This document shows positions 31,713 through 31,986 of a DNA stretch of 64,000 nt, in pieces (the stretch's first letter is position 1; every line of letters starts with the position of its first letter). The position numbers and the translations under genes were made by a program. The notes below the pieces were generated by a model. That model was given only the letters and a program-made list of their open reading frames with translations. It did not search any database and was not told the DNA's origin. Source of the stretch: Octopus vulgaris (taxonomy: Eukaryota); contig OX597842.1 in the NCBI GenBank assembly GCA_951406725.2, forward strand, positions 32,612,001-32,676,000, read 5' to 3'.

Positions 31713-31764
<52 letters not shown>

Positions 31765-31775
31765 TTTGTAGAAGG

Positions 31776-31826
31776 AGCTTCTACAGAGCTAGGACTGTTT
31801 CATTCAAAAGAAATCATCAGGAAGCT
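31776..31826 (-). ncRNA. Type I hammerhead ribozyme, intact core (minus arm of inverted pair)
   Basis: AGCUUC-CUGAUGA-UUUC UUUU GAAU-GAAA-CAG UCCUAGCU CUG-UA-GAAGCU. Confidence 0.75.
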
Positions 31827-31853
31827 TGCTGTCAAAATCACATTTTGACAGCA

Positions 31854-31904
31854 AGCTTCCTGATGATTTCTTTTGAATGAAACAGTTCTAGTCCTGTAGA
31901 AGCT
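31854..31904 (+). ncRNA. Type I hammerhead ribozyme, intact core (plus arm of inverted pair)
   Basis: AGCUUC-CUGAUGA-UUUC UUUU GAAU-GAAA-CAG UUCUAGUC CUG-UA-GAAGCU; predicted cleavage after 31898. Confidence 0.75.
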
Positions 31905-31986
31905 CCTTCTACAAAATAAATTAATTTACTCTGCTATGTATTGAGTACCTTATTTACTGTGGTTAACCCCGACTCAACCCGGGACC

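What the first reader, a model, noticed from the sequence alone, without database searches (positions are those of the whole stretch)
31761..31920. Near-perfect hairpin encoding a complete hammerhead ribozyme on each strand
Seen: ~78-bp inverted arms with a 3-nt loop. The plus arm (31854-31904) and the minus arm (31776-31826) each read AGCUUC-CUGAUGA-stem II-GAAA-CAG..CUG-UA-GAAGCU. The only differences between the arms lie in loop III (UUCUAGUC vs UCCUAGCU); core and stems are identical. Established: Penelope-like elements carry type I hammerheads in their pseudo-LTRs and often show inverted LTR segments, and hammerheads in both polarities are a hallmark of viroid-like RNAs. Inference: a transcript from either strand could self-cleave, but the long rod fold would compete with the ribozyme fold and might act as a conformational switch. 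Caveat: the base of stem II is U-U rather than the usual G-C.
Basis: partly seen in the sequence, partly recalled or inferred. Interest (0 to 1): 0.85.

Follow-up and report, generated by a model that had tools for sequence, protein, structure and literature searches.

The report
Jumping-gene stub with mirrored hammerheads
The hairpin is two short end-pieces of a Penelope-type jumping gene joined head to head, one of well over a thousand such stubs in this genome; its mirrored ribozyme motifs are a by-product, but the joints across the family likely record where the element's capped RNA begins and how both arms are copied.

Summary
The hairpin is real: 80-bp arms, a 3-nt loop, and a complete type I hammerhead motif on each strand. 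It is not a viroid-like element or a switch. It is the minimal head-to-head insertion of a Hydra-clade Penelope-like retrotransposon (PLE) in (TA)n: one untailed arm, and one arm with a 70-nt tail that runs into the RT/GIY-YIG ORF in full-length copies. Exact-pattern searches find about 1,900 such fold-backs and 6,149 ribozyme copies. Opposite-strand hammerhead pairs, head-to-head palindromes and the U·U stem II base are already published for PLEs. This scan found the same kind of stub before on other DNA. In a read-through transcript the rod out-competes the ribozyme fold by over 70 kcal/mol. The family-wide joints are more informative. Most fall at the ribozyme's first base, 29 nt after a TATA box. 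888 copies carry an extra G there that no TATA-bearing copy has, and in 11 of 24 hairpins the two arms differ at that first base. This likely means both target strands are primed and each copy runs off a capped sense RNA, against the published antisense self-priming idea. Cleavage and the start site are untested.

The parts
31716..31758 (.). (TA)n target, left flank
   Evidence: sequence
31759..31838 (-). Untailed 5'-truncated PLE end, inverted copy. It starts 12 nt upstream of the ribozyme and ends after the AATAAA in the TA tract.
31776..31826 (-). Type I hammerhead motif, minus copy; predicted cut between 31782 and 31781; private loop III variant
31839..31841 (.). Head-to-head joint CAC. 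On the minus strand 31839 is a G not present in the parent (T), possibly cap-derived, at a secondary start at -12.
   Evidence: G at -12/-13 joints in 8 of 13 arms against 10 of 47 at other lengths, p=0.013; sample enriched for window-like copies
31842..31921 (+). 5'-truncated PLE end, direct copy; 94-97% identical with its tail to ends of full-length copies
31854..31904 (+). Type I hammerhead motif, plus copy; predicted cut after A31898. 31854 is the inferred main transcription start of the parent.
31896..31912 (+). Family-wide local hairpin over the cut site and the 3' strand of stem I; predicted to block the ribozyme fold (mirror at 31768-31784)
   Evidence: pair probability 0.93 in a 75-nt RNA; intact in 147 of 153 units
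31922..31991 (+). PLE tail: the sequence that follows the 5' ribozyme and leads to the ORF in full-length copies; ends in an AC-rich stem-loop and ACAT, merging with (TA)n
31990..32041 (.). (TA)n target, right flank
   Evidence: sequence

Best explanation
The hairpin is two 5'-truncated ends of a Hydra-clade Penelope-like retrotransposon joined head to head in a (TA)n tract, likely made when both cut target strands primed reverse transcription near the 5' end of the element's RNA and the two short copies were joined. Shown: the parentage, the layout, the copy numbers, the fixed outer ends and the pile-up of joints at the ribozyme's first base. Inferred: the parent is transcribed from a TATA promoter that starts at that base, so the ribozyme is the first 51 nt of a capped RNA. 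Also inferred: the RT starts at two internal sites (after the AATAAA and at the tail end), runs off the cap adding a C, and the two copies join, most often through the self-complementary AGCT in stem I. The template was uncleaved, because both arms run through the cut site. This copy has lost the TATA box and is likely inert; any read-through transcript would fold as a rod.
For: Parent: the tail continues into an RT/GIY-YIG ORF (L058), and L095 has a 722-aa open frame with Hydra motifs. Layout: among the first 100 of 6,149 ribozyme matches, neighbours within 10 kb are head-to-head 25 times, tail-to-tail once and tandem once. Joints: 645 perfect GGAAGCTTCC joints, 407 GGAAGCHC(N)TGA joints, 351 with 0-30 nt between the stems, of which 40 of the first 50 have 8 nt or less, 486 inside the core, and only 42 with 31-60 nt. 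TATA: TATAAAT lies 29 nt before +1 in 43 of 45 copies that keep it, though the spacer sequence varies. Extra G: 888 of 6,149 copies read G-AGCTTCC, 0 do so with the TATA upstream, and the -1 base in 45 TATA-bearing copies is T 22, A 14, C 9. One short-read contig of run X16 joins back to +1 through a single G. Independent arms: +1 differs between the arms in 11 of 24 hairpins with G on both arms. 48 of 50 hairpins have exactly one tailed arm. Literature: both strands extended, two internal RT starts and a dispensable ribozyme in a Poseidon PLE (PMC11167929); extra G from the cap in L1 insertions (PMC11702581).
Against: No direct start-site or cap data. A fold-back of the cDNA on its own copy of stem I would also add C (then C, T) after GAAGCT, so G-A joints alone do not prove a cap. 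The arm differences at +1 come from one assembly in which hairpin arms carry likely artefacts: G deletions in 23 of 167 hairpin arms against 1 of 68 others, not seen at 1% in short-read contigs. Arms agree at core position 7 in 49 of 50 hairpins, which fits one template or DNA fold-back as well as two RNAs from one source. The palindromic AGCT could attract joints by microhomology whatever the RNA end. The window's own arms stop at -12, not +1. A TATA at -29 is slightly short of the usual -30/-31 (recalled), and D. virilis Penelope has a TATA-less promoter (PMC2377424). Exact patterns and the first-listed sites (contigs C1-C3) were sampled, not all copies.
Confidence: 0.88

Rival explanations
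1. Same parent, but the second arm is DNA-templated: one cDNA runs to the 5' end, folds back on itself and copies itself until it anneals to the second target end at the TA-rich AATAAA stretch. A variant is self-priming on an antisense RNA, as proposed for rotifer PLEs.
For: Arms agree at position 7 in 49 of 50 hairpins, and 48 of 50 have one tail. The 407 GGAAGCHC(N)TGA joints can be drawn as a fold-back with a 5-7 nt loop. Self-priming was proposed in PMC3846280.
Against: Fold-back predicts identical arms at +1, but they differ in 11 of 24. The 645 loop-less AAGCTT joints cannot form by intramolecular fold-back without a loop. An antisense template gives no reason for a G at a position fixed 29 nt from a sense TATA box. 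Both routes may operate.
Confidence: 0.3
2. The hairpin is a small non-autonomous element (MITE-like, or a fold-back retrozyme) that moves as a unit.
For: At least 31 of 40 scored candidates match nearly the whole 215-nt unit, and some centres recur, such as TCAGGA.
Against: Centres vary continuously from inside the core to kilobases. Each hairpin's sequence upstream of stem I matches a different full-length subfamily. The stub lacks the TATA box, and the tail is one-sided.
Confidence: 0.06
3. One reading: a two-polarity ribozyme hairpin acting as a viroid-like replicon or a rod/ribozyme switch.
For: Both motifs are complete, and in isolation the 51-nt ribozyme fold is within 0.3 kcal/mol of the minimum. 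Family variation falls almost only at N7, loop II and loop III, so the parent's ribozyme is likely under selection.
Against: The rod wins by 71-78 kcal/mol. There is no promoter in the stub. The copy is one of very many, with a private loop variant. Inverted pairs are expected by-products.
Confidence: 0.04

Closest known systems
Hydra clade of C-terminal EN+ Penelope-like elements (Craig et al. 2021, PMC8557442; passages and supplement part 2 seen)
   Same: RWR/RWK, DKT, CxCX5C linker, no CCHH, CxxC and CxH around the conserved E and N, (TA)n target, type I hammerhead with U10.1-U11.1, inverted 5'-truncated copy with one-sided tail. Penelope-13_HM is listed there with a hammerhead on both strands.
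   Different: Its ribozyme differs from that of Hydra-1_Obim, so this is another family. Units are 4.3-5.5 kb against under 3 kb, the tail is 70 nt against 30-40, and loop III is 8 nt with a CUAG palindrome against 1-3 nt.
Poseidon element PAc of Anolis (Frangieh et al. 2024, PMC11167929; main text seen)
   Same: Both target strands extended; two internal RT start sites bounding the tail, one in an AC-rich stem-loop; uncleaved RNA is the template.
   Different: Different clade. That paper does not map the RNA's 5' end or explain head-to-head joints in the text read. The starts here merge with TA microhomology.
Head-to-head palindromic pLTR junctions of Adineta vaga Penelope (Arkhipova et al. 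2013, PMC3846280; passages seen)
   Same: Inverted pLTRs with palindromes at the junction, optional tail, putative TATA box in the pLTR.
   Different: There explained by self-priming on an antisense template and left open. Here the joints carry a signature that fits a capped sense RNA.
Dual min-HHRs of Schistosoma PLEs (Cervera and de la Pena 2014, PMC4209133; parts 1-2 of 4 seen)
   Same: Hammerhead pairs 100-700 bp apart on opposite strands, tied to truncated PLEs; palindromic loop III for dimer folding.
   Different: This ribozyme has a 4-bp stem III and may fold as a monomer, and the pair is only 27 nt apart.
Viroids and animal non-LTR retrozymes (bioRxiv 10.64898/2026.07.22.740005, part 1 of 5 seen; viroid features recalled)
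   Same: Hammerhead motif; rod-like fold.
   Different: A DNA insertion with inverted rather than head-to-tail units; no circular RNA shown.

Membership tests
Hydra-clade PLE (parent) | Single ORF with RT and C-terminal GIY-YIG endonuclease | tested here: met
   L095 722-aa frame with YRDDG at 356 and YIG at 612. Pfam scan of the L058 pieces gave no RT or EN family; PDB sequence search was empty.
Hydra-clade PLE (parent) | RWK motif, and DKG changed to DKT | tested here: met
   RWR at 47 (RWK in 14 of 16 aligned relatives, RWR in 2); DKT at 125 (15 of 16 relatives) (16 of 120 listed relatives aligned)
Hydra-clade PLE (parent) | CxCX5C linker; no CCHH; CxxC and CxH around the conserved E and N | tested here: met
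   CNCPDKTTC at 576, pattern kept in 17 of 17 rows; only one Cys before YIG, with CDLC...E...N...CMH after it (read by eye)
Hydra-clade PLE (parent) | Insertion in (TA)n and a canonical hammerhead in the pLTR | tested here: met
Hydra-clade PLE (parent) | Generally short (<3 kb); descriptive, not diagnostic | tested here: not met
   Ribozyme-to-ribozyme units of 4.3-5.5 kb, owing to a microsatellite-rich 3' region
Hydra-clade PLE (parent) | RT groups with reference Hydra elements in a tree | not tested
   No reference Hydra proteins were held as session sequences
PLE inverted insertion | 5'-truncated inverted copy at the 5' end; tail on one side only | tested here: met
   48 of 50 hairpins have one tailed arm; 25 of 27 neighbouring pairs are head-to-head
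Type I hammerhead ribozyme | CUGANGA, GAA, A15.1-U16.1, H17, and three helices | tested here: met
   family changes sit at N7 and loops II and III. No compensatory stem changes were seen, because the stems are invariant.
Type I hammerhead ribozyme | G10.1-C11.1 pair and Rfam model match | tested here: not met
   U-U; best Rfam hammerhead hit 13.1 bits. U-U is common in Hydra elements and reported as tolerated.
Type I hammerhead ribozyme | Self-cleavage | not testable with these tools
   needs in vitro assay
Viroid-like RNA or non-LTR retrozyme | Circular RNA replicon, or head-to-tail tandem units | tested here: not met
   Inverted DNA insertion derived from a protein-coding PLE
MITE-like element moving as a unit | Shared fixed interior and symmetric ends across copies | tested here: not met
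   Variable joints, subfamily-matched flanks, one-sided tail

The most novel reading that the evidence does not exclude
In this Hydra family the hammerhead is the very first 51 nt of a capped, TATA-driven RNA. The commonest insertion is a 'double strong-stop' product: both target strands prime at two fixed internal sites, each cDNA runs off the cap (copying it as C, with errors at +1 and sometimes telomerase-like re-copying of the last 9-12 nt), and the two join through the ribozyme's own AGCT. This would settle the origin of PLE head-to-head palindromes in favour of a sense template. A 17-nt hairpin over the cut site would keep the ribozyme off until it is needed.
Probability: 0.5. Interest if true: 0.62.

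Novelty: new member of a known kind. Interest (0 to 1): 0.38.

Why it matters
The hairpin itself is ordinary debris of a known retrotransposon clade, and scans for two-polarity hammerheads will keep hitting it. The family as a whole is useful. How PLEs make their inverted ends was left open in PMC3846280 and PMC8557442, and here more than a thousand joints converge on one base with a cap-like G. That gives single-base predictions (start site, cap dependence, two-strand priming) that CAGE and the existing in vitro PLE assay can test.

Tried and rejected
1) Single-G deletions next to the cut site looked like a footprint of RT crossing a cleaved ribozyme: 23 of 167 hairpin arms against 1 of 68 other copies, p=0.003. 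They are not listed at 1% in short-read contigs of X15, X16, X17 or X9, so I treat them as likely assembly errors in hairpins; contigs drop rare variants, so this is not final. 2) Expression: no RNA holder listed; all runs were contigs, and no start or end pile-ups could be read. 3) Rfam: only the top 150 of 695 window hits were shown, almost all microsatellite matches. The gathering-level Plastid-psbJ-4 hit on the rod (55.3 against 55.2 bits) is a generic hairpin match. 4) GIY-YIG and RT ORFs near some copies (L033, L056, L061, L065) belong to other PLE families and were not used. 5) The metagenome scan for related loci found 59 pattern matches and none confirmed, so the TATA spacing was not tested in other species. 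6) The energies and arm comparison were mis-indexed and were redone; the 3'-end classes used too loose a pattern and were replaced. The '56 of 56 G' at zero retention is true by construction; the fair figure is 56 of 70 arms keeping 2 nt or less. 7) A 3' splice site at AG|CTTCC was considered; no joint class starting at CTTCC stood out in the listings read, but it was not searched for. 8) No host gene was evident among window ORFs (read by eye, not scanned). 9) Luense et al. 2017 on dimeric PLE hammerheads is recalled only; it was not held. Searches that showed no paper mapping a PLE start site to the ribozyme's first base, or a cap G at PLE joints: (listings, plus passages of the papers cited). 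Subscription papers and the bioRxiv supplements were not visible.

Full report
Observation. The hairpin is as described, with small corrections. Arms run 31759-31838 and 31842-31921 around CAC, with three differences, all in loop III. It folds at -130.2 kcal/mol, z -24.6. Each strand carries every conserved hammerhead base and three helices. Rfam does not score it as a hammerhead (13.1 bits, partial). The insertion also includes a 70-nt one-sided extension to 31991 and sits between two (TA)n tracts.

It is a repeat. The window lies in a 2.8-Gb genome of 227 contigs. It is probably an octopus; this rests on recalled repeat look and earlier notes and was not determined. Of 388 candidates, 40 were scored: 31 match nearly the whole 215-nt unit and 9 match the arm plus tail. 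Longer copies have the same layout with longer arms or no inverted arm. Exact patterns give 6,149 copies of the ribozyme's 5' half. They give fold-backs in five classes: 645, 407, 351, 486 and 42, about 1,900 with small overlaps; every reversed-pattern control was 0. Among the first 100 ribozyme matches, neighbours within 10 kb are head-to-head 25 times out of 27.

The parent. In L058 the ribozyme and tail run on into an RT and GIY-YIG reading frame, and a second ribozyme closes the element 4.7 kb later. Twenty further ORF-bearing loci were fetched. L095 has a 722-aa open frame with RWR, DKT, YRDDG, CxCX5C, YIG and CxxC..CxH and no CCHH. These are the Hydra-clade features given in PMC8557442 (passages). 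The window's arm and tail are 94-97% identical to the ends of these copies. 765 relatives at E<=1e-20 were found among 7,994 scored candidates, 38-52% identical in the 120 listed. Hydra-1_Obim is already listed from Octopus bimaculoides, but with a different ribozyme (supplement part 2).

What is already known. Inverted 5'-truncated copies with a one-sided tail are typical of PLEs (PMC8557442). Hammerhead pairs on opposite strands were reported in Schistosoma (PMC4209133), and Penelope-13_HM is listed with both polarities. Head-to-head palindromic junctions were described in rotifers and tentatively ascribed to antisense self-priming (PMC3846280). U10.1-U11.1 occurs in 14 of 26 Hydra rows and is a tolerated mismatch (PMC3088659). 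A repeat annotation of O. vulgaris lists Penelope-like families, but the words hairpin, palindrome and Hydra do not occur in its main text (PMC13282606). Earlier notes of this scan describe the same stubs on other DNA; a search by sequence found none.

Is the ribozyme real, and does it work here? Across 177 units, changes sit at N7 (A/T), loop II and loop III. One common loop III change lengthens the central palindrome from CUAG to ACUAGU (38 of 177), which fits dimer folding; a loop III self-duplex is predicted at -13.4 kcal/mol. The stems are invariant, so there is no covariation. The isolated 51-mer folds with all three helices within 0.3 kcal/mol of the minimum. From +59 onwards a hairpin over the cut site takes over (pair probability 0.93 for the plus arm and 0.73 for L095 at 75 nt), and it is intact in 147 of 153 units. 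In the full hairpin the rod wins by 78 and 71 kcal/mol. Because the antisense arm is transcribed first on either strand, cleavage from this locus is unlikely (inference). All arms run through the cut site, so the template was uncleaved or re-joined; a Poseidon PLE likewise uses unprocessed RNA (PMC11167929).

How the stub likely formed. The outer ends are fixed. In the first 50 sites, 37 of 50 tailed arms end at GGACCTACAT followed by TA, and untailed arms end within about 15 nt after CTTCTA; 48 of 50 have one of each. The inner joints pile up at the first base of stem I: 645 + 407 + about four-fifths of 351, against 42 in the next 30-nt class. A TATAAAT lies 29 nt upstream of that base in 43 of 45 copies that keep it, across spacers of differing sequence. 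888 copies have a G just before it. None does with the TATA upstream, and parents have T, A or C there. In hairpins with a gap of 4 nt or more, 61 of 86 arms read G-N-GCTTCC (GA 46, GT 10, GG 4, GC 1), and the two arms differ at N in 11 of 24. An extra G marks cap copying in L1 (PMC11702581). Some joints show repeated re-copying of the last 9-12 nt (L118; C11 and C13 rows). A short-read contig joins back to this base through one G, and loose ends fall before it in all four runs laid, though subfamily differences upstream also produce loose ends. I read this as two target-primed copies, each running off a capped sense RNA and joined through AGCT, in line with two-strand extension and two internal starts in vitro.

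Against this reading. A cDNA fold-back on its own stem I copy also adds C. Arms agree at N7 in 49 of 50 hairpins. Hairpins in this assembly carry likely errors. No cap or start-site data were available. The window's own arms stop at -12, where an extra G is enriched only modestly (8 of 13 against 10 of 47) in a sample biased towards such copies. I put parentage and by-product status at about 0.9 and the capped twin run-off at about 0.5.

Verdict. Observation confirmed; interpretation partly supported. A new family of a known clade in its commonest, known insertion form. Interest is modest for the hairpin, and somewhat higher for the testable start-site and cap signature in the family.

Noticed in passing
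L095:2525, 2533, 2536 (loop III, A17 and stem I of the parent's ribozyme): A>G differences at 4-19% of depth in three runs guessed to be RNA (X1, X2, X10) and near 0 in X15. This could be A-to-I editing, including the cleavage-site base. They were not listed for X9, and there is no matched individual.
   Followed up: partly
G000 C1:172236777 (L109), C5:34052617, C16:52999116: 45-nt direct tandems in which the 3' strand of stem I is joined to the core of the next copy through AGCT, a minimal retrozyme-like repeat.
   Followed up: no
L095:2590-2625; window 31950-31990: AC-rich stem-loop just before the tail end, like the RT start site of the Anolis element; the untailed end follows the hairpin over the cut site.
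   Followed up: partly
L058:6650-9070: About 2.4 kb of microsatellite-like 3' region is carried as part of the element and shared between copies.
   Followed up: partly
L045 and L047 (minus strand), L033:2619-3794, L056:4840-7722: A second, unrelated hammerhead motif and RT or GIY-YIG frames of other PLE families near some copies.
   Followed up: no
window 46521-47668: Tandem copies of a unit of about 140 nt, next to RT-like fragments of a LINE.
   Followed up: no
window 45518-45769: Fragment resembling the C-terminus of a Tc1/mariner transposase (resemblance recalled).
   Followed up: no
L060:522-1907: 462-aa C2H2 zinc-finger array near a copy of the element.
   Followed up: no
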